Source: Emiliania huxleyi CCMP1516
Taxonomy: Eukaryota
Length of the DNA: 60,585 nt
Direction: 5' to 3'
NCBI RefSeq assembly: GCF_000372725.1
Contig: NW_005201551.1
Coordinates: forward strand, 93,167-153,751
Below the pieces are notes generated by a model. It had not been told where the DNA came from and did no database searches. It saw only the letters and a list, made by a program, of their open reading frames with translations. Position 1 is the stretch's first letter, and each line of letters opens with the position of its first letter. The translations under genes and the position numbers were made by a program. Positions 1-60,585 of the stretch are shown piece by piece.

Positions 1-1250
1 ACCACAAAAGGCACAGCAGACAACGGCCCCTTATGGGCCGTCGAAGAGGCCGTCATACTCCTCCGGCCTCGCCCCCCCTTCCCAACCCTCCCCTGGCTCA
101 GGCTCCTCATCCTCGCGGCGCGCAGTGCGCACCCCGCCCCGCGAAGACGAACCCTTCCGCCGGCGTGCCTCGCGGGACTGCCGCCCGCTGCCGCCGCCCT
201 TCCCCCCCTCCGCCGCCCGCGCCTTCTCCGCCGCCCGTGCGGCCTCCTCCACCTCCTCCGCCGCCAACAGCGCCTCCCTCCGCGTGACCCCTATGGGCCC
301 CTTGCGCATCCAGGAGAGGTCGCGCGAGCGACCTATCCAGGGGTTACTCGAATACGGCGCAACGTAGCCGCTGCGCAGCTCCGAGTAGTCGCCAAAGCCC
401 CCCCCAAATAGCCCTCCAGGCAAGCATCGCAGACCCACTCGCCTAACTGATGTTGCCTGGGCATGAAGGAGAGCTGCTACCGATGACACCCAGCCTTCCC
501 GTTCTCGTAAATAAGGAAACAAAAGGTGAACGGTGCCCCAATTTATGCACTTGGAGCACTTGGAGTGCAGTCGGCAACCTCACGCCCAGGACCGGGGAGC
601 TGAGAAGCGCACCCAGTTGGCCGGACGCTCGGCATCGGGTTGCGGGCAAGAGAGCCCTAGCCCAGGGGGTGCGCGTTCGCAGGGCCATAACACGGGTCTC
701 CGAGGGTTGGTTCTGCGCTCCGGGTTTCCCCTAGCTGCGGAACGCCCCCTCTACTCGGAGCTAAAGAATACTCTCCGAGAGTTAGTCCGCGCTCCAGGTT
801 TCCCCTAGCAGCGGAGCGCCCCCTCTACTCGGAGCTAGTGGACACGACACTAGCTAGTGATACGAGAATACGCACCGTCCCCACGCAATACCTTACTCGA
901 AGATAATACGAGAATACGCAGCTGCGAGACACCTGTCGAGCAGCTTCCGCGGCGGGCAGCTTCCGCGGCCGTGGGGCGTGTGGGTGGGTGGGGGGGGGGG
1001 GGGGCGAAAAGGGAAGCGGCCCTGTACGGGCGCCCAAAAAAAAGATTAGGGAAACCGCGCCGGGGGGGGGGGGGGGGGGGCCCCCCCTCCTAGGAGGGGC
1101 CACCCCCACCAGGGGGGGGGAGGGGGGGGTTCTTTTTTTTGGGGAACTTTGGGGGGAGGGCGCAACCCCCCATCCCGGGCCGGGGGGTTAAAAAGCCCCC
1201 CCCCCGGGCCGGAAAATTCGCCTCGGCTTCGGGCTAAAAAACCCCCCCCC

Positions 1251-3154: not shown

Positions 3155-4714
3155 TCACGCTGCCTTCCGCGCCCCGTCCCAGTCCCGGATCATCCGGCGC
3201 AGCATGTGGTGCGGGAAGAGGCTAGTGTTCTCGAGCTCGCCGCCCGTCATCGGGCTCGTCGACTTGGTCGCGAGCCAGCGCTCGATCGCACACCGCTCAT
3301 ACGCGTGCCCATCGGCCGCCATCACCGGGTCGCTCATGATTTCGGTCGTGATCGGGCAGACGAAGTCGTCGGGCGGCTCCTCCTCCCCCGGCGGCGCCTC
3401 CGGCTCTGTCGGCTGCTCCACCGCCGCCCGCCTCTCCTCCTCCAGCCTCGCGCTCTCTTCGAGCGCCGCCGCCAACTCCGCCTCCTCCGCCGCCGCCAGC
3501 GCTGCCTCATCCTCGGGCTCCCGCGACGGCCCAGCGCCGCCTCCGCCGCCCTTCCCCTTCTTCTTCTTCTTCTTGCCCTTCTTGCTCTCCTTGGCGCGCT
3601 CCCCCTCCTTCTCCGCCTCCTCCTCTGCCAGCAGCGCCTCGGCATGCCGCGCCGCCTCCGCCTCTGCCGCCGCTCTCTCCGCCTCCCTCGCCGCTGCCTC
3701 CGCCGACGCCTCCGCCGCCGCATGCTCCTCGAGGGCGCGCACGCACTCGGCGTGGCCCTCCTCCTTGGCCATCTGCAGCGCCGTCCTGCCGCTCGCAGAG
3801 CACAACGCCGCGTCTGCGCCCGCCCGCAGCAGGTGGAGGACGACGGCGGGGTGACCGTTGCCGGCGGCGTCCATCAGCGCGGTGTCGCCGTCGCTGTTCT
3901 GCTTGTTGATCTCCGCGCCGCGCTGCAACAGAAGATCGACCACCCGCTCGTGGCCGGTGCTGGCGGCGTACATCAGCGCGGTGACGTCATTGCCGTCCTG
4001 CATGTCGACCTCTGCGCCATGCTGTAGCAGCAGCTCAACCACCCGCTTGTGGCCGGTGCTGGCGGCGAGCATCAGCTCGGTGTTGCCGTTGCAGTTCTGC
4101 ATGTTGATCTCCGCGCCGCGCTGCAACAGAAGATCAACCACCCGCTCGCGGCCGTTTCCGGCGGCGATGATCAGCGCGGTGACGCCGTTGCCGTCCTGCT
4201 TGTTGATCTCCGCGCCGCGCTGCAACAGCAGCTCGACCACCCGCTCGTAGCCCTTCTGGGCGGCGTACATCAGCGCGATGCCGCCGTTGCCGTCCTGCTT
4301 GTTGATCTCCGCGCCGCGCTGCAGCAGCAACTCGACCACCCGCTCGTGGCCGTAGCCGGAGGCGCACATCAGCGCGGTGACGCTTCTGCTGTTCTGCAAG
4401 TTGATCTCTGCGCCGCGCTGCAGCAGCAAGTTGACCACCCGCTCGTGGCCCTGGCCGGCGGCGCCCATCAGCGCGGTGCCGCCGTCGCCGCTCTGCAAGT
4501 CGATCTCCGCGCCGCGCTGCAACAGAAGATTGACCACCCGCTCGTGGCTGTGGGCGGCGGCGATCATCAGCACGGTGACGCCGCTCACACCACCTACCCC
4601 GCAAGTCGCGTTGATCCGCCCGCCGCTGTCGAGCCATGCCAGCAGCGCCGCCTCGTCGCCTCGCCCAGCCACTAACGCCTCTGGCATCTCCGGCGGCAAC
4701 GCGGCAAAAGCCAT
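3155..4714 (-). CDS. Ankyrin-repeat protein with charged linker and C-terminal U-box (putative E3 ubiquitin ligase), intronless
   Basis: ATG at 4714 (MAFAALPP). About 9 tandem 33-aa ankyrin repeats (GxTALMxAAxxGHERVVxLLLQRGAEIN), an A/E/K-rich linker, then a U-box (PDDFVCPITTEIMSDPVMAADGHAYERCAIERWL...SPMTG...LFPHHMLRRMIRDW). Confidence 0.93.
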   Translation of the reverse strand: MAFAALPPEMPEALVAGRGDEAALLAWLDSGGRINATCGVGGVSGVTVLMIAAAHSHERVVNLLLQRGAEIDLQSGDGGTALMGAAGQGHERVVNLLLQRGAEINLQNSRSVTALMCASGYGHERVVELLLQRGAEINKQDGNGGIALMYAAQKGYERVVELLLQRGAEINKQDGNGVTALIIAAGNGRERVVDLLLQRGAEINMQNCNGNTELMLAASTGHKRVVELLLQHGAEVDMQDGNDVTALMYAASTGHERVVDLLLQRGAEINKQNSDGDTALMDAAGNGHPAVVLHLLRAGADAALCSASGRTALQMAKEEGHAECVRALEEHAAAEASAEAAAREAERAAAEAEAARHAEALLAEEEAEKEGERAKESKKGKKKKKKGKGGGGGAGPSREPEDEAALAAAEEAELAAALEESARLEEERRAAVEQPTEPEAPPGEEEPPDDFVCPITTEIMSDPVMAADGHAYERCAIERWLATKSTSPMTGGELENTSLFPHHMLRRMIRDWDGARKAA

Positions 4715-8860: not shown

Positions 8861-34080
<25,220 letters not shown>

Positions 34081-34554: not shown

Positions 34555-35061
34555 GGGGAGAGGAAGAGCAAGGGCGAGAGAGGGCAAGGGACTGGGCGCT
34601 GGCATACCAGGGGGGGCAGGGTGGTGGGCGGCGACCGCCGCATACCGTCCTACGGCGGGGACTATCGCTACGCCAGGGAAGACAAGGGCGTCGAAGTGCA
34701 GCTGCTGCTGTTCGAATCGTTCGGCGGGTTCGGAAAGGGGGTCCGTGAGATCCTCCGGAGAGCGGCGGACGTGCTACAGAACAAGCTGACGCGGGCCCAG
34801 TACCTCGATGAGGTGACTTGGACCACCAAGAGCTGGCTGGGGCTGCAGAAGCAGCGCATCTCAGTCGTTCTTCACACGGCCATCGCAGAGCAGGTCGTGA
34901 ATGAGCTTGCCTGTGGCGGGGGTGGGCGGGTGCACGGAGCTAAGTGCCTCGCCACCCTCGCAGGAGTCGCTTAGGCGGCTCCCGTGGTGTACCTGTGTTA
35001 GTGCCAGTGCGCGCCAGTCCCGTGCCCAGTGTTGTGCGAGGGAGTTTCGTTGTAAGATTCT
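34555..35061 (+). mobile_element. 507-bp left arm of an inverted repeat; encodes a C-terminal fragment resembling RLE-type non-LTR retrotransposon ORFs
   Basis: Peptide GDYRYAREDKGVEVQLLLFESFGGFGKGVREILRR...SWLGLQKQRISVVLH (stop 34974). Near-identical reverse complement at 38112-38618. Partial tandem copy at 35070-35213. Confidence 0.8.
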
Positions 35062-35220: not shown

Positions 35221-36748
35221 GCGCCGACGCAGCCGGCAGACGCCCTCCCCTCCGCCCCCGATCTCGGCGTGAGCGAGACGAAACTGGAGCCGCCCAGCCC
35301 TCCCGCCGTCGAACTCGACGTCCCGACGCCCGCCGACACCGCCGCGCCGACGCAGCCGGCCGCCGCCTTCCCCTCCGCCACCGATCTCGGCGTGAGCGAG
35401 GGGAAGCTGGAGCTGTGGCGCAAGCGCGGCGGCGGCGACCTCGAGCCGGTCCTCGCGAGCAGCGCCGTCGCCGTCCTCGACGCGCAGTGGGTCATCAGCC
35501 ACGCCGAGGCGGGCGGCGTCCTCACCCACCGTCAGGCGCTGCCCAAAGAGGCCTTCCTCTCTTTCGCCGACCTCGTCGAGGCGACCGGCGAGTATGGCTA
35601 CCTTCCCGTCGCCGCGCTCTCCTACCCGTGGCTGACCAAGGACCACCCCGACCCGCGCGGAGCCAACCTCGCCCGCGTCGCGAGGGCGCTCAAGGCCCTG
35701 CTCAGCGACCATCCCGTGTTCGGCAAACCCGTCAACCCGCGGCTCGGCGTCTTTTGGGACTTCGGCTCGCTGCACCAGCACCCCGACCCCCCCAACGGCG
35801 TCCTGCGCACCGAGGAGCAGAACGCGCTCTTCAAGCAGGGGCTGAGCTGCCTCGGCACGCTCTACTCCCACCCGAAGACATACGTGCTGCGGCTGACCTC
35901 CTTCCCGGACGGCCACAAGGCGGAGGACCAGGCCGAGGGCACCAACGTGGCCAAGTACTTTGACCGCGGCTGGTGCTCCACCGAGAACGCCTGGGCCAGC
36001 CTGACAAAGGCCGGCCAGCTCTCCCTAGACCTCGGCAAGATGCGCGCCGGCGTGGAGTACGGCTACGGCAGCCTCATCGACGACTGCGTCCAGGACGGCG
36101 GCCGGCGCCCTCCGCTGCTGCCGTCTGCGTTCGCGGCGGAGCTGGAGAAGAAGAGCTTCACCAACGGCAAGGACGACAAGCCGCTGGTGAAGCAGCTGTA
36201 CGAGGCCGCCTTCAAGGAGCAGTTTGGCAAGGCGACCGTGCTGAACTACCGCGGCCTCGGCTGGGGCGACGCGGAGGCGGCGCAGCTGGCGGAGGTCCTC
36301 GCGAGCGGGGCAGCGCCGCGGCTCGAGAGGCTCGAGCTCCAGCGCAACAAGATTGGCGACGAGGGCTGCAAGGCGCTGGCCGCCGCCCTCGGCAAGGAGG
36401 GGGCAGCGCCGCGGCTCGAGACGCTCTCTCTCGGCGAAAACAAGATTGGCGACGAGGGCTGCAAGGCGCTGGCCGCCGCCCTCGGCAAGGAGGGGGCAGC
36501 GCCGCGGCTCAAGGAGCTCTATCTCTTCTGCAACGAGATTGGCGACGAGGGCTGCAAGGCGCTGGCCGCCGCCCTCAAGGAGGGGGCCGCCCCGAGCTTG
36601 AAGGCGCGAGACGCCCCCCTCGCCACACGCCCCTCCCCCGCCCAATGCTCATCGCACCTCCCCTCGCGTGCAGTATCTCTTCGTGGACAACAGGGAGCAG
36701 CCTGAGCTGGTGGCCGTGTGCGAGGAGCGCGGCATCGAGCTCGGCTGA
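35221..36748 (+). CDS. HET-like domain + RNI-like LRR protein, 5' end missing; one GC-AG intron (36604-36673)
   Basis: Motifs VAALSYPWL..HPDP, VFWDFGSLHQ, LGTLYSH, YFDRGWCSTE. LRRs LxxLxLxxNxIGDEGCKALAAAL in 30-aa units. Splicing AAG|GC..CAG|TAT gives ..PSLK|YLFVDNREQPELVAVCEERGIELG* (stop 36748). No in-frame ATG before the HET-like domain. Confidence 0.8.
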
Positions 36749-37589
36749 GCCTCTCCAGCCCCGGCCGGGCGGCAAGGGCGCGGGGCCCGGCGGGACCGCC
36801 GCGCGAGCAAGGCAGAGAGCAACAGACCCTGCGGCTGCGGAGCACGACGCACAGCGGCGGTGGGGGGGGGGTGTCTGCGTCTCTCGGCGCGCTTCGGCCG
36901 CTTGGGACAAGAGCGTCGGAGCGGGCAAGAGGGCGGGGGAGGGGGAAGTGGGGTCAGGGTCTGGTTGGGCGAAAGACACACGGGGGAATAGATGATGCAG
37001 ACCGGGGACATCGATGGCCATTCGGATTGGCGTGTTGCACGTTATAGTGCACGTGTGACTGTGAGCACCGCCGCGGGGGGTCCGGGGAAAGCGGTTTGGG
37101 GAGGGGTGTCGATTTGCACAAACGGGACACCTGAATCTTTTGTTTTAGTCAGCTAGCTTACGCTTTATGGCGCATCCACTGGGCCGTCTGGGCGCTGGGG
37201 CCGCGCTCTCCCCACTCCCGGTCTCAATCCCCACAGACCCCACCATCCCGTCGGACGGGCCTGCGTAGACAGTAAAACACGTAACCACACTCAGAGCTCC
37301 ACACTAGCCGGTATAGGCGAGCCCCGGAGGCCTCACCGTCACCGCTCGCGGCGGAGCCGACGGCGGAGCCACGGGCCGGTGCGACCTTTTGGGGGCCCAT
37401 GAGCTCGCCGGGACGACGCCGATGGCTCGGCGCGCCTCTTCCCGCCAGCGTTAAACGGCCTACACACAGGGGCGAGGGGGGGGGAGACGGAACTGAGCCC
37501 TAGGTTCGTGATCCCGTCGCCGGCAAGGGCTGGGACAGGGGCGGCAAGCGACGGGCGGGTCCGCGACCTTTTGCGAGCGCCCATGAGTT

Positions 37590-37765: not shown

Positions 37766-38111
37766 CATCGGCGTCGCCGCGCGAGCGGCGCCGCCACTGC
37801 GCTTGTGAGTCCGATGCGCGAACGAGTCTTATCGCGAGTAGAGTCGTTACGCGTTTTCCTTCACACTTGTTTTATTTTCAGAAGCGTCATTGCGGACGTC
37901 TTACTCTGTACGCGAGGTCTCGTCTTCGAGAGACCTCTCCCCCTTTTGGACGCGCCGGGCCGAATAAATATTCCGTCCTTTGTTCGCGTGCGCTCACGCG
38001 GTGTAGAATTTTAGTGCCCATCGGCGAGATCTAGCCGAGATACAGCCAAGAAAAGAAAAGAGGCTAGCACGCTCGCTCCGCCATCGGCGAGATCTAGCCG
38101 AGATACAGCCA

Positions 38112-38618
38112 AGAATCTTACAACAAAACTCCCTCGCACAACACTGGGCACGGGACTGGCGCGCACTGGCACTAACACAGGTACACCACGGGAGCCGCCT
38201 AAGCGACTCCTGCGAGGGTGGCGAGGCACTTAGCTCCGTGCACCCGCCCACCCCCGCCACAGGCAAGCTCATTCACGACCTGCTCTGCGATGGCCGTGTG
38301 AAGAACGACTGAGATGCGCTGCTTCTGCAGCCCCAGCCAGCTCTTGGTGGTCCAAGTCACCTCATCGAGGTACTGGGCCCGCGTCAGCTTGTTCTGTAGC
38401 ACGTCCGCCGCTCTCCGGAGGATCTCACGGACCCCCTTTCCGAACCCGCCGAACGATTCGAACAGCAGCAGCTGCACTTCGACGCCCTTGTCTTCCCTGG
38501 CGTAGCGATAATCCCCGCCGTAGGACGGTATGCGGCGGTCGCCGCCCACCACCCTGCCCCCCCTGGTATGCCAGCACCCAGTCCCTTGCCCTCTCTCGCC
38601 CTTGCTCTTCCTCTCCCC
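38112..38618 (-). mobile_element. 507-bp right arm of the inverted repeat (copy of 34555-35061)
   Basis: Same peptide in ORF 38199-38552. Three substitutions noticed by eye. Confidence 0.85.
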
Positions 38619-39915: not shown

Positions 39916-44648
<4,733 letters not shown>

Positions 44649-45048
44649 GGCCGTGGAGGCTGGCCGACGGAAGGCAGCGGCGAGTGACCAACCTCGGACT
44701 TGCTGTCGGTATGAGGGGTGCGAGGGTGCGAGAAACGTCCGCAAAATAAAGAATTTATGGACCAAAGTCTGCGACTGGGAAATAAAGAAAAGGTGGCGGC
44801 GTGCCGTCCTCCCATCCCTCCCTTGGGTTGTCTGTTTTCTTTCTTTCTTTCTGTCGAAATAAAGAAAAATGGACTCGTGTATGTATGTAGAAAAGGACGG
44901 CTTTGTCGCATCACCCACACTGCCTAGGTGCCTATATCAAATCTATCAATGGTACTAAAAAATGAACTCGGGGGCACGGGACGCGGCACAAACGGGGCAC
45001 AAACGCCAGGCTACAAAGACGGGGAGGCACGTAGTGACGCAGGGGAGT

Positions 45049-45465
45049 CTAGGCGACGGCGGCGTCCTCCGACGCCGCGGCGAGCCTGAGCTCGGTCGCA
45101 ATCTCTTCCGCCGCCGCGAGCTGCAGCGCGACTGACATGCGCTGGGCCTGCAGCGACAGCCACGACCGCGTCGACCAGCTCGCCTCATCCTCGTGCTGCC
45201 GCTTCGAGAGCTTGTTGCGCACCTTGTCCTTCATCTGGTAGAACAGCCGCTTGACCGCGTTGCACCACCCGCCGAAGGTTTCAAACAGGTACATCTGCAC
45301 GTCGGTGTCCGAGCGCGAGAGGGCGTGCGCGTAGTCCGCCTTCTTGTACGCCACATAGCCGCCGCCGTCGCTCGGCCTGAAGTCGCCGTCCCCGACAGCG
45401 CCGCGCTGCTCGAGGCCGAAGACGTCCGCGCTCGTGCCGGGCTCGGTGTTGTCCAACTTCGCAGC
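45049..45465 (-). mobile_element. 5'-truncated C-terminal ORF fragment, diverged relative of the 34555 element (RLE-type non-LTR-like)
   Basis: KADYAHALSRSDTDVQMYLFETFGGWCNAVKRL...RNKLSKRQHEDEASWSTRSWLSLQAQRMSVALQ aligns with GDYRYA..LLFESFGGFG..QNKLTRAQYLDEVTWTTKSWLGLQKQRISVVLH. Confidence 0.7.
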
Positions 45466-46740: not shown

Positions 46741-47627
46741 AGCGGCAATCCTCGCGAGGGGGGTCCCAGGGGGGGGTCGAGCATTCCCATCCCCACATCG
46801 TAAGCAAACCCCGACAAATCCACACGACACGCCTCGTTTCGTCTGAAGGCAGCTTTCCGCTGCCTCTCGCGCTTGCCCCGCCGTACCGCGCCGCCGATGA
46901 GCCGCAAGCTACACGCCTGGATCCCCGCGACGCCTATTGCTCACCCCACCCCGCCCGCACCGCTCCCGCCGTGCGATGCGCTCTCGCTCGACGGCGCCCC
47001 TCAGCCTCGCACTGCCTGCTCCCTCCCGCTCGCAGGCGCCGCTGCCATTGAGGAGCTGCTGTCCATTCGCCACCCTTGCCCCGCGTTAGCCCGCACATGC
47101 GCATCCCATTTTATGCTACTGACGCTCGCTCGCCGTCGCCTGCGCGCCCGCAGATCCAAAACAACGTGAGCGAGGGGAGCCGCCGCGGCAGCTTGCGAGC
47201 TGGACCTCGAGCTGTGAACGCTGCGAGTAGGCGCGGCCCTCCTGAGCCCCCCTTTCTCTCCATTCCCTCTCAAAGATCGCTCTCTCAGCAGCACTTGATG
47301 GCCCAAACATGATGCGCTGCAATCAGCCGAGCAATCCAGCCGAGTGAGATTGCCCGTGATTGCCCGAGATCGCTTCCGGGATCAGCATGGCACTTCCGCA
47401 CCTCGTTGTGGAGGCGCTCTAGCGCTCGCGGGCTGCACGCCGTGGGGTACCGCGCAGCCCGCCTCCTTCTCTCCGCCCTCTCTCCCCGCGCAAGAGAGCG
47501 ACCCTGTCCCGCTCTCGCGCGAGCGTCGCCCGGCTACAGTCCGAGAGACGTAGCAGCGAGTGCCGGTACTCATCGAGACGCGAGCTGACGCCTCCTTCTC
47601 TCTGCCCTCTCTCCCGGCGCAAGAGAC

Positions 47628-47910: not shown

Positions 47911-47953
47911 CACCGAGACGAATGATGACATGTGATGACCAAGATGAATGCTC

Positions 47954-48089
47954 CCTCCCCCCGCACCCCGCCAGACGAGGGTTAAGTATCTGACGCTCAC
48001 CATCCACCCCTCATAGGTAGCACCCTCCCCCCGCACCCCGCCAGACGAGGGTTAAGTATCTGACGCTCACCATCCACCCCTCATAGGTA
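47954..48089. repeat. Tandem duplication, ~69-70 bp period
   Basis: ccctcccccgcaccccgccagacgagggttaagtatctgacgctcaccatccacccctcataggta occurs twice. Confidence 0.93.
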
Positions 48090-49884: not shown

Positions 49885-52318
49885 TTGCTGCGCCGCAAGT
49901 CAAAGTCTACTGACGCAGACGCGCCCTCGCCGCCGCCGTCGCCGCCCGAACCAACCGTCGTGCCCGAACCCGAAGCGCCGGTGCGGCGCGGTGGCTCTTT
50001 CCTGGATCTGAACGTTCTGAGCTGCGCTGGGCCTGGGAAGCCCGGCCCGCGCGGTCCGAAAGGAGACCAGGGTTCTCCCGGCCAAGATGGCCACGACGGC
50101 CATGACGGCCACGACGGCCCACCGGGGCCTCCCGGCCCCGGGCCGCGTCCGGCGATGATGGCGGTAATCTGCAACGCAATTACCGCCTCCTCCGTGCTGT
50201 CGATCGTGGCCATCGTGCTGTCGATCATAGCCATCACCCGTTCGCCGACTCCTCCCCCGCCGCCGCTACCTCCGTTTCTTTCGCCTCCGCCGCCACCGCC
50301 GCCACCGCCGCCGCCGCCTCCGTTTCTTTCGCCTCCGTTTCTGCCGCCGTCGCCGCAACCGCCGCCGCCGCGTCCTCCGCCCGAGTACAACGTCTGCTCG
50401 CCCGACCCGGAGCTGCTCGTGTGGGACGATCCGCCCGACTGGACCGTCGATCCTGGCCGCCGAAAAGTTCAAGTGGGCTGGCTCAAGGTGCCGATTCTGC
50501 ACCAACAGCCGAGCCTTGAACAGCTCGGCATTCCTCTCGGCGACACCGCACTTCGCGTGACTTTGGAGTTGGCCACCGACCCGGACACAAACGAGGAAAT
50601 TTGCTCACACAACGCGAAGCCACTTTTCACGCACTGCGGCGGACCAGGCTCCGTGAACGATTGCATGGTCGGAAAAGCGCCCGTGCGCAAACTGCTCAAT
50701 AGCGGCCAGTACCACCACCTCGCGATCGCTCAGCGCGGGATCGATCCCAAGGATGCTTTCAACTATGTGAAGGAGAATCCTCCCGGTTACAAATTCGGCC
50801 CCCTTCCCGACAAATGGGTCCAGGAGGGGGTGGAGCGCTTCCCGTACATCTACTGCCATAATGCATTTGATATCCGCGTGATGAATGAGGTGAAGGCGGC
50901 GTATCTGGCGGCAGGATTGAACTGGGAGTCTGTCTGGGAAAACCCTGAATACGTGCAATCTGGGGTAGCCTTTGCAGACCCCGGACTTACCAAGGTGTCG
51001 TCATACTAGAAGCGCCGAGATAGTCACGCTGGCAGCGCCACACAATCTGCCTTTATTCCCTACCACGCAGGTGTTCGCCGAGCTCCAGAACGCGGCGATG
51101 TCCGAGTGCCGCAGGCGGCCTGAGTATCACCTTGGGACAAACTTCGCTCGCGGCACCATGGTCTACCAGGACTTTATGGGCACGCAGGACTTGGCCCATG
51201 ATCTCGACACCCTTCGCACGGCCATCGGCGCGGATAAGCTGTCCGTCTGGGGCGTCTCTTACGGCACAGAAGTGGGCGCAACCTACGCGACGGTGTACCC
51301 GGAGCGGGTCGACAAAGTGATCCTGGATGGAAATGTCGCGATATCGAATGAGATCTACGAGGCTGCGCACCTCTGGGCTCTCAGCTACGAACAAGTTTGG
51401 AACGGACTCGCGGCAGCTTGCAACAACGATTTCTTTGTGGCCGGCGGCATCGACGCCCCTACCCTCCCCGCCGATGACTTTTGCGCGGCGACGCCATATC
51501 CAACGGACAAAATGAGCAAGCTCCTGGAGACAGACGAAACGCTTTTGTTGATGGCTTATACTCTCCTCGGAAAATTCTTCGAGGACTACGGAATTATGTG
51601 GAAGGGTGTCTCTCCCGGCAGCGCGATCATGATGGCGTGCGTCGAGTCCCTCCACAAGAACGGGGACTTCGACGGGGAGGGCTGTTGCGACTACCAGCCC
51701 GAAAAGAAATGTTGCAACGGTAAGATTCAAATTCCAGCCAACTCAAACACCACTTTTCAAGAAATGGAGGATGGAAATCCCACTGTCGCGCTGGTTCGCT
51801 CCGTCGACATGGCAGGACGACTCAGCACCGCGGACATTGCACGCCTCTGGGCCGACCTCAGGGACAAACACCCGATCGGGTTCCTTCGCGCAAACGGTAT
51901 CATCAGCATCGTCTCGGCGCCCAACCTGCCACGCCCGGTGCCTTCTTACGGATCGGGGCTGGACAAGCTGAAGCCTCTCATCATCGGCGACTTTCACGAC
52001 CCCGCTACGACGTACACGGCTTCGCAGGACATGCGAGACAAGTTTCCCAACGGCGCGCTGATGAGCTGGCAGGGCTACCACCACGGCCTCTTTGACGATG
52101 GCGACTTTGGCTTGTCCGACTACACCTCCTACACGTTCCAGAGCGAGGGTTACGGCGCGAAGGATTGCTACGACAGGATGTTGAACTATCTCGAGGATGG
52201 CACGCTCCCACCGAACGGCTACACGTGCCCGATCAATGGCCCAGCCGCAGGCTCTCTCAGCCTGAAGGTTGCAAAGCAGGTGCCCACGTGCCCGCCGGCC
52301 AATGCCCCATCGCCTTAA
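49885..52318 (+). CDS. TAP-like alpha/beta hydrolase (peptidase S33/tripeptidyl-peptidase-like) with N-terminal collagen-like, TM and polyproline segments; intron 50995-51070; start uncertain
   Basis: GWLKVPI, THCGGPGS, IAQRGI, MGTQDLAHDLDTLRTAIGADKLSVWGVSYGT (nucleophile), DKVILDG, IIGDFHDPATTY (Asp), YHHG (His). AAG|GT..CAG|GTG joins ORFs 49885-51009 and 50972-52318 in frame. Confidence 0.88.
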
Positions 52319-52772: not shown

Positions 52773-54869
<2,097 letters not shown>

Positions 54870-55081: not shown

Positions 55082-55366
55082 CGCGGTTTCTACCACGACG
55101 CGATCTTTGTCAAGCGCAACAACTTCAACCTGCTGCTCCACGAGACGTTCGGCGGCGGCTTCTCGCCCACCGCCGTTCTCAAGCTGCGCCGCCTCGCACG
55201 CAAAGTCGCGCGCGGCAGCGTTGACCGCACGGCCTACTCGCCCAAGTACTCGCTCTCTTTTATGTCCCACCATGCAGAGCGCATCTCTCTCTCTGTTGTG
55301 CGAGGCGTGAACCGCGCCATTCGCTCTCACCTGGCAACCCTGTCTGCACGTCTCGCGCGCGCGTGA
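55082..55366 (+). mobile_element. Third diverged RLE-type non-LTR-like C-terminal fragment (absent from the ORF track), with a (GAACTT)n-like tract at 55498-55541
   Basis: Manual translation: RGFYHDAIFVKRNNFNLLLHETFGGGFSPTAVLKLRRLARK...DRTAY...SFMSHHAERISLSVV...ARA*. Confidence 0.62.
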
Positions 55367-56799: not shown

Positions 56800-59700
56800 C
56801 GACACATGCTCCACCTTCAGCTCTCGGCGCCCGCCTGGCGCGGCACGGCGCGCCTTCGCCGCCCTGCCACGATTGGCGGCGGCACGTCCTCTCGCTCGCC
56901 CGCTCGCGCCGGCCTTTGGCCGCGCGGCGAGAGCCCTCTCGGCCAAGCCGGTGGACATTGACCCCTCCCTGCTCGGCGACACGTCCCTCTCCGGCGCGGC
57001 TGGCGACGGCGTGCCGGTCGGCACGCCGCGTCCGGGCTGGAACAAGTACGGCTACGCCACCCGCTGCGCCAGCGTCGTCAAGGCGAGCACCGCAGCCAGC
57101 GAAGCCACAAGCAGCGCCGCGTGCCGCTCTCCCACGCCACGCCGCCGCCGCTGCTCCGTTCGCAGCCGAGCACCGCCGAATGCACCAGCGGCACACGCAC
57201 TCTCGCCCGCAGCGCTCCCTGCTACAGCCGTGCATGCTAACGCCTCCCTTCAGGTCAGCGACTACGCGATCCGGCGCGTCAAGGCGCTCTCGCTGCCGAT
57301 CGTGCTCGGCTCCACGTTCGAGCTCGACGACTCGGCGCATGGCGCGCGGCTGCACGCCAAGAGCGAGACGGCCTACGCCGACGGGGACGGGCGACCGCCT
57401 GCACTCGATCTCGGCTCGATCTCGGCTCGATCTCGGCTCGATCTCAGCTCGATCTCGGCTCGATCTCGGCTCGATCTCGGCTCGATCTCAGCTCGATCTC
57501 GGCTCGATCTCGGCTCGATCTCGGCTCGATCTCGGCTGCTCGGCTCGATCAATCTCGGCTCAATCTCGGCTCCTCTCCGCCGCTAGGTACGTGTACTCTC
57601 GCTGGGGCTCTCCCACCAACGAGGGCGCGGCGAGGCAGGTGGCTGCGCTCCCCGTCTCCTTAGCCTGCGTACGGGCGCCCGTCTCCTTAGCCTGCGTACG
57701 GGCGCAGACCTCGCCTTCTGTGCTGCCATCACCTGCCTCCAACGCCACTGCTGCCAGTCTCCTGGTCAGAGCGACGGGCTGAGGTCGCCTACCGCTGCTG
57801 CTACCGCCTCCAGGTGGCGGCGCTTGAGGGCGTTGGCCCAGACAGCGACGGCGGCTGCATGCTCTTCTCGTCTGGCATGTCGGCCATCACCGCTTCGTTG
57901 ATGGCGGTCCTCAAGGCGAGGTCGTCGAGAACAGCCATCGAGAACTGAACCGCCATCTGGGATCACTAATGGCGGTCCTCGCGGCGGGCGATGGGTGGAT
58001 TGGTGAGTCGGTGGTTCGCTCATTGGTGGTGGGCGGTGCTGCTGGGCGATCACGCGAGACTATGTGATTCTGGCGAGAGATCAATCACCCAGTTTCACAG
58101 CTGGAGGTGTGAAGAGACGCCCTTCACATGGTGTGGCGATGCAATGCGGTTGTGGCGAGCGGCCAATCACGTGTGATGCGGCGCTACCGTTCTAGGCGGG
58201 CGACCACGCAGTCTTCCCCTTCACGGTCTTCGGAGGCACGCTGCGAGAAGCTGAGTCGAGCATCAGCTTGACCACGCGCTGGTTCACTGAACAGGTCTAC
58301 GGAGGGACGCACGAGTTTCTGGTCGAGTTTGCGCAGCACTGGGGCATCGAGTGAGATGTCGCCGAGATGTCGCCGAGATGTCGCCGAGATGTCGCCGAGA
58401 GACAGCCGAGATGCAGCCGAGGTGCAGCCGAGGTACAGCCGAGAGACAGCCGAGAGACAGCCGAGGTACAGCCGAGGTACAGCCGAGGTACAGCCGAGGT
58501 ACAGCCGAGAGACAGCTTGGCTGCTCTTCACCCCACACCACATATCTCGCCGCATCTCGCCATATCTCCCCCTCTCTCCTCGAGGTACTCGCTCGTCGAC
58601 GCGACCGACCCCGCCGCGTATGCCGCCGCCCTCCGCCCCTCCACCAAGGCGGAGCGCACGGCGACGCCCCGCCGAAGGCCGCGCGGCTCTCCGTGAAGCG
58701 GTTCGTTCCTTTGGCGGGTAGGTGGTGTACACCGAGTCGCCGGCAAACCCGACTTGCCGGCTGACCGACCTCGAGGCTTCATTAAGCTGTCTAATTAATA
58801 GTTAATAATCAGACTTTGATTACTAATACTTGCCGGCGGACCGACCTCGAGGCGGTCGGCGAGGTGGTGAAGAAGCATGCCGCCGCGGGGCACGCCAAGC
58901 CATGGGTGATGTCGGGGACGTGTCTAGGAAGTGTCTAGGAAGCGTCTAGGAAGTGTCTAGGCACGCCAAGCCATGGGTGATGTGCGACTCCACCTTCGCC
59001 ACCCCCTTCCACCAGCGCTGCCTCGAGGTGCCGGCCGTGGACACGTCGCGATCTCGCGATCCACTCTCGGGTGATCTCGGGTAATCTCGGGTAATCTCGG
59101 GTAATCTCGGGTAATCTCGCTGCCTCGAGGTGCCGGGCGTGGACGTTGCGATCCACTCCGCCACCAAGTACATCGGAGGCCATTCGGACATCCTCGCCGG
59201 CGCCGCCACCGCCGAGTCTGGCGAGCTCCTGCACGGTGTGAACGGCGTGTCTTCACACCGCCCCGCCGTGAACAGGCGCCGCCACCACCGAGTCTGGCGA
59301 GTTCCTGCACGCTCTTGCAAAGGTGCAAAAGCTGCTGGGCGCCCCGCTCGCCCCCTCGAGTCCTTCTAATGATTACTTATTAGACAGGAACTATTAATAT
59401 TTCATTAGGCGCCCCGCTCGCCCCCCTCGAGTCCTTCTAATGAATTACTTATTAGACATGAACTATTAATATTAATTAGGTGCCCCGCTCGCCCCCCTCG
59501 AGCCCTTTTAATGAATTTACTAGTTAGACATTCCTTATTAGTTAATATCTAATCAGGCGCCCCGCTCGCCCCCCTGGAGTCCTTCTTACTCGCGCGCGGT
59601 CTCCGCACCCTGCACGTCCGGATGGAGAGGCACGGGGAGAATGCGATGCGAGTGGCGAATTTGTTGGTTATTAGTGACAGGTCCCGAATTGACTAATTAA

Positions 59701-60370
59701 TTAGGCACGGGGAGAACGCGATGCGAGTGGCGAAACTGCTGGAGGCGTCGCCCCTGGTGGAGCAGGTCCCTCTACCCCGGCCTGCCCTCCCCGACGAATT
59801 AGTAATTCACACTTGATTGAGGAATGAATGAACCAGGTCTTCTACCCCGGCCTGCCCTCCCACCCGGACCATGAGCTCGCCAAGCGCGTCTTCAGCTCGG
59901 GCGCGGAGTTTGCCGCTGCTCCGCCCAATGGAGCTGAACTCGGGTAGCTAGCCGTGGGTCGCGAGTCGCTGTTCTTAGGCGGGCCGGGCTGCCGCTCTCG
60001 CCGCGCCCAGTCCTTCGGAGGCGTGCCCGCCCTCAGTTCCGAATCAGTTAGTTCACTGGTTAGCCACTGCTTGGTTTGCTAACCAAGCATGCTCGCCTTC
60101 ATTTCCTAGATCCAATCAGTTCGTTCATGGGTTAGCACTAGTTCATTAACCAGGCGTGCTCGCCTTCATTTCCTAGATCCAATCAGTTAGTTCATGGGTT
60201 AGCACTAGTTCATTAACCAGGCGTGCTCGCCTTCATTTCCTAGATCCAATCAGTTAGTTCATGGGTTAGCCACGAAGCAACTGGTTGATTAGGCATGCTC
60301 GCCTTTATCATCGCGGGCGACGACGAGACGGCGCTGCGGCGGGGCCGGCGCCTCTGCGAGCGGCTCGAGG
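56800..60370 (+). CDS. Cys/Met metabolism PLP-dependent enzyme (methionine gamma-lyase / cystathionine gamma-lyase or synthase family), multi-exon, 3' end beyond the window; start uncertain
   Basis: Exonic motifs in order: LPIVLGSTF, YVYSRWGSPTN, LFSSGMSAITASL, VYGGTHEF, VVYTESPANPT, CDSTFATP, HSATKYIGGHSD (PLP lysine), LARGLRTLHVRMER|HGENA, VFYPGLPSHP, FGG|MLAF. The R/A-rich N-terminus resembles a transit peptide. Confidence 0.9.
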
Positions 60371-60585
60371 TGACCACGCTCTCTTTTTTGTTCATTGACT
60401 GAACACGCTCGGGTGGGGGGGCAAGGGGGGGGGGGGGGAAAGGGGGGGGGGGGGGTTCATTTACCTGAACCCCCTCGCGGGGGGGGGCAAAGGGGGGGGG
60501 GGGGGGGGGGGGGAAAAAAAAACACCCTGCTTTTGCGGGGGAGAGAGAAAAAACCCCCCCCCGCCCCCCCTAAAAATTTGGGGGG

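What the first reader, a model, noticed from the sequence alone, without database searches (positions are those of the whole stretch)
58890..59836. Introns built from a duplicated exon edge plus a filler: candidate intron-generating system
Seen: consecutive introns of the PLP-lyase gene begin with a near-copy of the start of the NEXT exon, followed by a filler ending in AG. 58890-58960: GCACGCCAAGCCATGGGTGATGT + (GTGTCTAGGAA)n. 59200-59275: 36-nt copy + hairpin cassette. 59630-59704: ~30-nt copy + AT-rich filler. 59766-59836: ~25-nt copy + AT-rich filler. In 59028-59129 both sides of the junction are duplicated. The same design recurs through VPS13 (10535-10606, 11420-11700, 22345-22505, 28112-28185, 30755-30862, 32460-32620) and ABCB. 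Inference: a staggered break or long target duplication filled with a short AG-ending sequence creates an intron whose donor is whichever G-C/G-T starts the duplicate, which would explain the abundance of GC donors. The duplications look far longer than the few-bp TSDs of known introner transposons, and several unrelated fillers are used.
Basis: partly seen in the sequence, partly recalled or inferred. Interest (0 to 1): 0.88.

Follow-up and report, generated by a model that had tools for sequence, protein, structure and literature searches.

The report
Introns born from long exon duplications
In the alga Emiliania huxleyi most introns examined carry a 15-45 base copy of the neighbouring exon joined to a short filler, many fillers being shared between introns, which likely records an ongoing way of making new introns and makes the origin of introns testable in a cultured species.

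Summary
The window is Emiliania huxleyi DNA. RNA contigs of two studies splice out all five named introns, and DNA runs of other strains carry the duplications. 72 of 105 introns in three genes hold a junction-derived exon copy above the 99th percentile of 10,764 controls; 79 of the 105 are only predicted. Copies are 15-54 nt (median 28), mostly 59-88 nt apart. Fillers form intron-confined families, including a fixed ~40-nt cassette in three unrelated genes. None of the PLP-lyase gene's 16 intron positions occurs in haptophyte-clade genomic orthologues, one VPS13 intron is precisely absent from two DNA runs, and the same design appears in another haptophyte. Best reading: recent intron gain by long target duplication plus capture of an existing intron's 3' half, probably during DNA repair; target-primed reverse transcription is the main rival and the enzyme is unidentified. 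Introners are already listed for this genome with duplications unresolved (PMC9860276 supplement); I found the long-duplication design in none of ten literature searches. New variant of a known kind.

The parts
56807..60381 (+). Cys/Met-metabolism PLP-dependent lyase gene (PF01053), 16 introns up to residue 389 of P0003; 3' end runs off the good sequence
   Evidence: (98% identity to P0003), RNA joints
58890..58960 (+). GC-AG intron, 71 nt: 23-nt exact copy of next exon start + 11-nt repeat filler
59028..59129 (+). GT-AG intron, 102 nt: duplication spans the AG|GT junction (12 nt upstream, 15-26 nt downstream) around 10-nt repeat filler
59200..59275 (+). GC-AG intron, 76 nt: 36-nt copy (34/36) + ~40-nt cassette
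59339..59556 (+). GC-AG intron, 218 nt: three stacked units (70, 71, 77 nt), each exon copy + AT-rich filler ending AG
59630..59704 (+). GC-AG intron, 75 nt: 38-nt copy (34/38) + AT-rich filler homologous to the filler of VPS13 intron 10888-10961
59766..59836 (+). GT-AG intron, 71 nt: ~26-nt copy + AT-rich filler
58776..58851 (+). GC-AG intron, 76 nt, mirror form: AT-rich filler then 24-nt copy (23/24) of the upstream exon end
   Evidence: RNA carries the first copy's allele at 58838 and a compound joint
60021..60292 (+). GC-AG intron, 272 nt: four stacked units (66, 67, 67, 72 nt)
57916..58195 (+). GC-AG intron, 280 nt, with an internal copy of the exon-exon junction (-15..+8) at about 57969-57991
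58226..58294 (+). GT-AG intron, 69 nt, decayed copy (14/16) at its first base
57639..57813 (+). GT-AG intron, 175 nt, decayed copy (10/11) at its first base
8864..34080 (-). VPS13-family gene; 79 introns predicted by my own gene model, 57 with junction copies
   Evidence: partial RNA support
24142..24281 (-). 140-nt two-unit GT-AG VPS13 intron, precisely absent from contigs of DNA-like runs X8 and X9
   Evidence: (table 8)
29574..29641 (-). 68-nt VPS13 intron (own decayed exon copy + cassette); apparent source of the copy at 25472-25539
   Evidence: 65/68
25472..25539 (-). Whole-intron copy of 29574-29641, first base to last, sitting at the 3' end of another intron
39928..44650 (-). ABCB-type transporter gene; 10 introns defined with P0111, 4 with junction copies

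Best explanation
These are spliced introns that likely arose recently in the Emiliania lineage when about 15-45 bases of exon were duplicated and a 30-55 base piece, probably copied from the 3' half of an existing intron, was placed between the two copies, most likely during repair of a staggered DNA break. Shown: splicing, the copies, the filler families, the lineage-specific positions and one presence/absence difference. Inferred steps: (1) a break with a long overhang is filled in and patched with sequence templated from another intron, joined through a few shared bases; (2) an insert survives in coding sequence only if it is spliceable: the duplicate starts with G-C/G-T/G-A (donor), the filler supplies branch site and AG, and the total reaches the ~62-nt floor of intron length seen here; rarer forms take both sites from an AG|G inside the duplicate; (3) fillers that splice well become the commonest templates and spread as families; (4) the flanking direct repeats let unequal recombination stack units and allow precise loss. 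The nuclease and polymerase are not identified.
For: Splicing and strain-wide presence. 72 of 105 introns with copies. Variable copy length (15-54, median 28) with spacing 59-88 nt in 51 of 56 events; shortest introns 62 nt (60 was the floor of my VPS13 model; shortest RNA-defined intron 69). Fixed ~40-nt cassette preceded by 20-35 nt of site-specific sequence in 14 of 15 units. 211 related intron-end pairs against ~11 expected; 105 of 134 same-orientation pairs end in register at the AG. 0 of 16 positions in L006/L007, L028, L049 (full length) and L029, L030, L052 (partial); these fall with or next to Haptolina and Calcidiscus proteins (89/87 and 87/83 support). All 11 of 26 defined introns without a detectable copy are still followed by an exon starting with G. 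DNA-level template: in 13217-13519 and 11032-11173 the duplicate includes the older intron's own first bases rather than the exon's (predicted junctions); two filler families occur in both orientations; a filler shared by 25218-25287 and 26210-26305 goes with 8 identical exon-start bases. In 18 of 19 stacked introns the 3' unit is closer to the exon than the 5' unit (1 tie), as unequal crossover predicts.
Against: A sequence-blind repair process should leave many such scars in unconstrained DNA, yet 56 events lie in 32.4 kb of spliced genes and at most 2 of 13 repeats in 25.8 kb outside look alike (one more at 38018), and filler motifs are nearly confined to introns (cassette 44 in introns, 3 in unmodelled gene parts, 1 outside; motifs were chosen from introns). 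A whole intron was copied from its first to its last base, which suits an excised-RNA intermediate better. Cassette age does not track copy age (e.g. copy 75%, cassette 93-95%; copy 100%, cassette 80%), so fillers may have been swapped after birth. The outgroups are few, unnamed, intron-poor and distant, so 'recent' is not dated; the one polymorphic intron has a decayed 5' copy and may be a loss. No genome-wide data; 79 of 105 introns are predictions.
Confidence: 0.52

Rival explanations
1. Target-primed reverse transcription: a non-LTR-type reverse transcriptase/endonuclease copies short intron-derived RNAs (3' ends, lariats or circles) into a nick, giving a fixed AG end, variable long target duplications and telomerase-like reiterated 10-11-nt fillers.
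For: Variable-length long duplications are typical of this route (recalled, no call). Cassette 3' ends in register at the AG and sense-oriented in nearly all members. Whole-intron copy 29574-29641 at 25472-25539 has the AG-to-donor join of a circular intron (intron circles are reported in PMC10996645, passages). Confinement to transcribed genes. Four short ORF fragments in the window resemble a retroelement endonuclease end (recalled resemblance only).
Against: Predicted AG end of fillers that are free of splice-site selection was not found: 11 of 20 against 9.5 expected, p=0.32 (set includes arrays and misplaced junctions). The ORF fragments matched no Pfam family (2 of 2 tested), no solved structure (1 tested) and only unnamed atlas clusters; I saw no target duplication around them by eye. 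Selection alone can explain AG ends and sense bias.
Confidence: 0.25
2. Plain tandem duplication of ~70 nt of exon around a proto-splice site, with the 3' half later replaced by a filler through gene conversion from other introns.
For: Near-constant unit length; cassette and copy ages are uncoupled; tandem duplication is an established route (PMC3443670, passages); a pure 67-of-70-nt tandem duplication exists at 47953.
Against: An unmodified GC-rich duplicate has no branch site or AG in register in most cases and would break the frame until converted (inference); no intron made wholly of exon copy was found among the 105; 100%-identical copies already sit beside complete fillers (58890, 24761, 22129).
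Confidence: 0.12
3. Old introns partly overwritten by abortive mRNA/cDNA-templated intron loss: the exon copy was read off the spliced message and the filler is the remnant of the old intron.
For: Copies are anchored exactly at junctions, and several introns hold an internal copy of the spliced junction (57916-58195, 22949-23105). Would explain confinement to spliced genes.
Against: 0 of 16 positions shared with orthologues; predicts the best copy at the intron's 5' start, but the 3' unit is the better in 18 of 19 (internal units were selected for score, and 6 of the 7 with a recognisable 5' unit agree, 1 tie); two duplicates include old-intron bases; does not explain shared cassettes or the G at every exon start.
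Confidence: 0.07
4. Conventional introner: a MITE-like DNA transposon moved by a cut-and-paste transposase.
For: Discrete ~40-nt element at unrelated sites; five introner families of mean length 37 or 70 nt are listed for this genome (PMC9860276 supplement rows).
Against: Duplications are 15-54 nt and variable, against 3-9 bp; the cassette has direct, not inverted, end repeats; several unrelated fillers share the design.
Confidence: 0.04

Closest known systems
Introners / introner-like elements (Gozashti et al. 2022, PMC9860276; Roy et al., 10.1101/2020.10.14.339549; review PMC11282704)
   Same: [quoted passage not shown] E. huxleyi CCMP1516 is itself listed with 653 introners in five families, 82% in genes.
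   Different: Reported duplications are 3-9 bp and fixed per family; here 15-54 nt and variable, forming about 40% of a typical intron. No terminal inverted repeats. For E. huxleyi the supplement gives TSD '?' for four families and 'N' for one. I could not see their consensus sequences, so identity of my cassette with their 37-nt families is untested.
Intron gain by staggered double-strand-break repair in Daphnia pulex (PMC4202315; reviewed in PMC3443670)
   Same: Insert flanked by a direct repeat of exon sequence, AT-rich fillers, repeated events at one site, presence/absence among isolates.
   Different: Daphnia intron-exon repeats are 4-12 bp (33 cases among 90 new introns) and most inserts have no known source; here repeats are 2-5 times longer, mark most introns examined, and fillers come from shared intron families.
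Tandem genomic duplication of an AGGT-containing exon segment (PMC3443670)
   Same: Both splice sites can come from a duplicated AG|G junction (59028-59129, 58776-58851).
   Different: Here only part of the intron is duplicate; a foreign filler supplies branch site and usually the AG.
Direct repeats near splice sites generally (Rogers and Bendich 2025, PMC11782384)
   Same: Intron-5'/exon-3' and exon-5'/intron-3' repeat arrangements, break-repair model.
   Different: Mean 11.4 bp, 71-100% alike, chosen from 80-bp windows; no mention of Emiliania or haptophytes in the main text.

Membership tests
Spliceosomal (U2-type) intron | Removed from mRNA with GT/GC...AG ends, frame restored | tested here: met
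   16 introns, 11 GC-AG and 5 GT-AG, 98% identity to P0003 without frameshift; 14 by direct joints, 2 by one compound joint
Introner | Sequence-similar introns at non-homologous sites | tested here: met
   cassette in 14 of 14 aligned sites of three genes; 57 of 105 intron ends fall in a family; similarity covers the 3' part only
Introner | Positions are recent and lineage-specific | tested here: met
   0 of 16 shared (one orthologue intron 5 nt away); outgroups distant, age not dated
DNA-transposon (MITE-type) introner | Short fixed target-site duplication, 3-9 bp | tested here: not met
   15-54 nt, variable
DNA-transposon (MITE-type) introner | Terminal inverted repeats | tested here: not met
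   cassette has direct end repeats and an internal inverted repeat; folding not above shuffles
DNA-transposon (MITE-type) introner | Partner transposase in the genome | not testable with these tools
   no genome held
Break-repair intron gain (Daphnia type) | [quoted passage not shown] | tested here: met
Break-repair intron gain (Daphnia type) | Same scars in unconstrained DNA | tested here: inconclusive
   rare outside spliced genes, but only 25.8 kb, partly young repeats and unannotated genes
Break-repair intron gain (Daphnia type) | Presence/absence among isolates, with gain polarised | tested here: inconclusive
   one precise difference; direction unknown
Non-LTR (target-primed) retroposition | Variable-length target duplication with a fixed element 3' end | tested here: met
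   (splice selection gives the same pattern)
Non-LTR (target-primed) retroposition | Element 3' end abuts the duplication where selection does not require it | tested here: inconclusive
   11 of 20 vs 9.5, p=0.32
Non-LTR (target-primed) retroposition | Partner reverse transcriptase sharing the 3' tail | not testable with these tools
   no genome; candidate fragments unannotated
Tandem genomic duplication intron | Whole intron derives from exon duplicate | tested here: not met
   fillers unrelated to the exon and shared between genes

The most novel reading that the evidence does not exclude
Haptophytes run a transposase-free intron factory: pieces of excised introns are reverse-transcribed into staggered nicks in transcribed genes, each insertion making a 15-45 nt target duplication that supplies the donor, so that intron 3' ends behave as self-propagating elements and have generated most introns of Emiliania, its GC donors and its intron minisatellites.
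Probability: 0.25. Interest if true: 0.92.

Novelty: new variant of a known kind. Interest (0 to 1): 0.76.

Why it matters
The source of most new spliceosomal introns is unresolved, and mechanistic signatures are usually a few bases long. Here the signature is 15-54 nt, marks most introns examined, gives each intron a built-in age gauge (copy versus exon), and lies in a cultured alga with many sequenced strains, so birth, stacking and precise loss can be counted and the repair-versus-retroposition question tested directly. It offers a partial explanation for the reported 56-65% GC donors of E. huxleyi (PMC4028052, which ascribed them to genome GC content) and for failing gene models (P0001 misses several exons), since exon copies inside introns mislead aligners. 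The same design in L028 suggests it extends to other haptophytes.

Tried and rejected
No whole genome was held, so no genome-wide test. Homologue searches with a 45-residue PLP-lyase exon and a VPS13 exon found nothing; VPS13 introns therefore rest on my own codon/splice-site model, which recovered 13 of the 16 training introns and visibly misplaces some donors. The second read-laying run (32) had its joint table swamped by repeats (15 shown, 306 not), so only contig pieces were usable. The cassette pattern was absent from viral and prokaryote contigs. No Rfam match in 57000-60400. Assembly artefact and retained duplicates: rejected. Hairpin stability of the cassette: not above shuffles. AG polarity of unconstrained fillers: not significant. 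Local capture (cassette similarity falling with distance): rho -0.33, p=0.10, and the pattern found only 11 copies. Mismatch spectrum of copies: contaminated by edges, not used. Candidate retroelement ORF fragments: no annotation. 13 exact 12-mer repeats remained in one predicted VPS13 cDNA segment, 0 in the other four spliced sequences. Earlier findings of the scan: none for this genome or sequence; word hits concerned self-splicing and tRNA introns and were not used. Literature: ten searches found no description of long exon duplications in haptophyte introns; the 2013 genome paper and later introner papers did not appear in them and were not read, and the introner supplement was cut when stored, so prior description cannot be excluded.
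Full report
Setting. A 41-residue stretch of the gene matches EMIHUDRAFT_106701 of Emiliania huxleyi CCMP1516 at 100%; the gene is a Cys/Met PLP-dependent lyase (PF01053). No whole genome was available, so all counts come from the 60.6-kb window, eight laid sequencing runs and 80 metagenome loci.

The observation. Spliced alignment of the transcript-derived protein P0003 gives 16 introns, 11 GC-AG and 5 GT-AG, at 98% identity. RNA contigs of X10 show 15 listed joints covering all 16 (two through one compound joint, in which the aligner laid the exon on its decayed intron copy); X12, from another study, shows 12 of the 15; DNA-like runs X5 and X4 show none, and their contigs span the duplications. 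The five named introns are as described. Nearby introns show a mirror form (58776-58851) and stacked units (59339-59556, 60021-60292).

Is it chance? 9 of 16 introns beat the best of 200 controls. Adding 10 ABCB introns defined with P0111 (probably a model of the same or a sister gene, so not independent RNA evidence) and 79 VPS13 introns from my own gene model, which uses no duplication information, 72 of 105 pass a 99th-percentile threshold from 10,764 controls. RNA pieces support four VPS13 introns: 22949-23105 directly, and 23912-23988, 24014-24083 and the join at 24137/24278 through length arithmetic (25+54=79 nt). An annotation-free scan finds 56 duplication-plus-spacer events in 32.4 kb of spliced genes, 51 of them 59-88 nt apart, median copy 28 nt, against 13 repeats in 25.8 kb outside, of which all but about two are protein repeats, satellites or low-complexity sequence.

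Anatomy. Commonest is donor + copy of the next exon + filler ending AG; rarer are mirror and two-sided forms in which the duplicate spans AG|G. All 26 RNA- or homology-defined introns are followed by G, including the 11 without a detectable copy, and the donor equals the exon-start dinucleotide in 20 of 26 (p=0.0007), but in only 6 of those 11. A G-starting downstream exon is also reported for introner-built dinoflagellate introns (10.1101/2020.10.14.339549, passages). Fillers form families: 211 related pairs of intron ends against ~11 expected, 105 of 134 same-orientation pairs in register at the AG, 48 of 105 introns unassigned. The largest is a ~40-nt cassette with fixed ends and direct end repeats in all three genes, preceded by 20-35 nt of site-specific sequence in 14 of 15 units. 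Others are 10-11-nt minisatellites, telomere-like repeats and AT-rich stretches; the fillers of 59630-59704 and 10888-10961 are homologous. The motifs are almost confined to introns. One whole 68-nt intron, with its own decayed exon copy, recurs 4.1 kb away at 65 of 68 bases, and a ~150-nt family occurs at 29713, 41590 and 53017.

Old or new? A scan with 28 aligned homologues returned 80 of 194 loci; many are intronless contigs of transcript size and were not counted. Those with introns or long flanks and 74-79% identity group with Haptolina brevifila and Calcidiscus proteins at moderate support. L006/L007 (one lineage) have no introns, L028/L029/L030 (one lineage) three, L049 five, the partial L052 one; none of the 16 positions is shared, the nearest being 5 nt away. 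More distant low-GC relatives also lack them. Parallel loss in intron-poor outgroups cannot be excluded but is less parsimonious. L028's intron at residue 273 is itself two stacked units with a 22-nt exact exon copy, and L049's at 393 starts with 11 of 12; the other 7 of those 9 orthologue introns show no clear copy. Within the species group, contigs of X8 (organism B) and X9 (organism A) join 24137 to 24278, lacking the 140-nt intron exactly while keeping its two neighbours; X8 is on record as '?' and X9 as 'DNA?'. Its 5' copy is decayed, so precise loss through the repeat is at least as likely as gain.

Mechanism. Overwriting of old introns from spliced mRNA is disfavoured: positions are unshared, the 3' unit of stacked introns is the closer copy in 18 of 19 (with an ascertainment bias noted under rivals), and two duplicates include the older intron's first bases. 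A cut-and-paste transposase is disfavoured by long variable duplications and no inverted ends. That leaves repair of staggered breaks with templated capture from other introns, filtered by splicing (my best reading, 0.52), and target-primed reverse transcription of intron RNA (0.25). For the first speak fillers in both orientations and shared bases at joins; against it the scarcity of scars outside spliced genes and the end-to-end intron copy. My one discriminating test was negative for the RNA route but weak (11 of 20 vs 9.5). Uncoupled ages of cassette and copy mean fillers may be exchanged after birth. That the introns arise as duplication plus insert, whichever enzyme acts, I put at about 0.85.

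Prior knowledge. I read passages (not whole texts) of PMC4028052, PMC3443670, PMC4202315, PMC11782384, PMC13518057, PMC11282704, 10.1101/2020.10.14.339549, PMC10996645, PMC9860276 and PMC3488318, and matching rows of the PMC9860276 supplement. GC donors in E. huxleyi are known (56-65%). Introners are listed for this genome: 653 copies, five families of mean length 37 or 70 nt, duplications unresolved in four and called absent in one. Daphnia break-repair introns have 4-12-bp repeats; introner duplications are 3-9 bp. Ten searches found no account of the long-duplication design; the library lacks many subscription papers. Statements on non-LTR duplications and polymerase theta are recalled.

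Verdict. Real, RNA-confirmed, pervasive in this window and probably wider in haptophytes. It works like an introner or break-repair intron gain but fails the defining tests of MITE-type introners and of pure tandem duplication. New variant of a known kind; interest 0.76.

Noticed in passing
window 24142-24281 (-): VPS13 intron precisely absent in contigs of X8 and X9 while neighbouring introns are kept: intron presence/absence difference, direction unknown.
   Followed up: partly
window 25472-25539 and 29574-29641 (-): A complete 68-nt intron, including its exon-derived 5' part, is copied 4.1 kb away in the same gene (65/68), joined AG-to-donor as in a circular intron.
   Followed up: partly
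window 29713-29856, 41590-41744, 53017-53167: A ~150-nt family (73-83% alike) with a CA tract and a CCTTA-repeat 3' end, in a VPS13 intron, an ABCB intron and an unannotated place; may be a more conventional introner.
   Followed up: no
window 34555-35061 (+) and 38112-38618 (-); related ORFs 45052-45462 (-), 55088-55255 (+): Two 99.4% identical 507-nt elements in inverted orientation flank an LRR gene; one has a 135-nt duplicated 3' end. Their ORF ends recall a non-LTR endonuclease (recalled resemblance; no Pfam match for the two tested, no PDB or named atlas match for the one tested).
   Followed up: partly
window 18959-19225, 30540-30740, 32833-32984: Telomere-like repeats as intron filler, on the strand that reads as a branch-site-like motif; interstitial telomeric tracts are reported as frequent in Calcidiscus (PMC13518057).
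   Followed up: no
window 27385-28000, 14112-14350, 26624-26870, 20164-20620: Arrays of about 3-9 units of 68-118 nt, each exon copy plus filler: expanded introns that look like minisatellites.
   Followed up: partly
L028 11088-11237 and 2218-2440: Another haptophyte-clade genome shows the stacked exon-copy plus filler design with a different filler family.
   Followed up: partly
L028 10725-11010 and L049 2883-3160: Introns 2 nt apart (247.1 and 246.2) in sister lineages: sliding or parallel gain.
   Followed up: no
window 715-837, 38018-38115, 47460-47626, 47953-48089: Direct repeats of 35-67 nt outside modelled genes; possible unspliced products of the same process.
   Followed up: no
window 57651-57704 and 57958: A 27-nt tandem duplication is absent from X5 and X4, and 20 nt present in X10, X5 and X4 are missing from the window: intron length changes among strains.
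   Followed up: no
window 3164-4660 (-), 35239-36750 (+), 51068-52318 (+): Ankyrin/U-box, LRR and alpha/beta-hydrolase genes have long uninterrupted reading frames, unlike the intron-dense PLP-lyase, VPS13 and ABCB genes; possibly young or little transcribed.
   Followed up: no
window 39928-44650 (-): The ABCB gene appears to encode only one membrane domain and one ATPase domain although its best relatives are full-length transporters of ~1300 residues.
   Followed up: no
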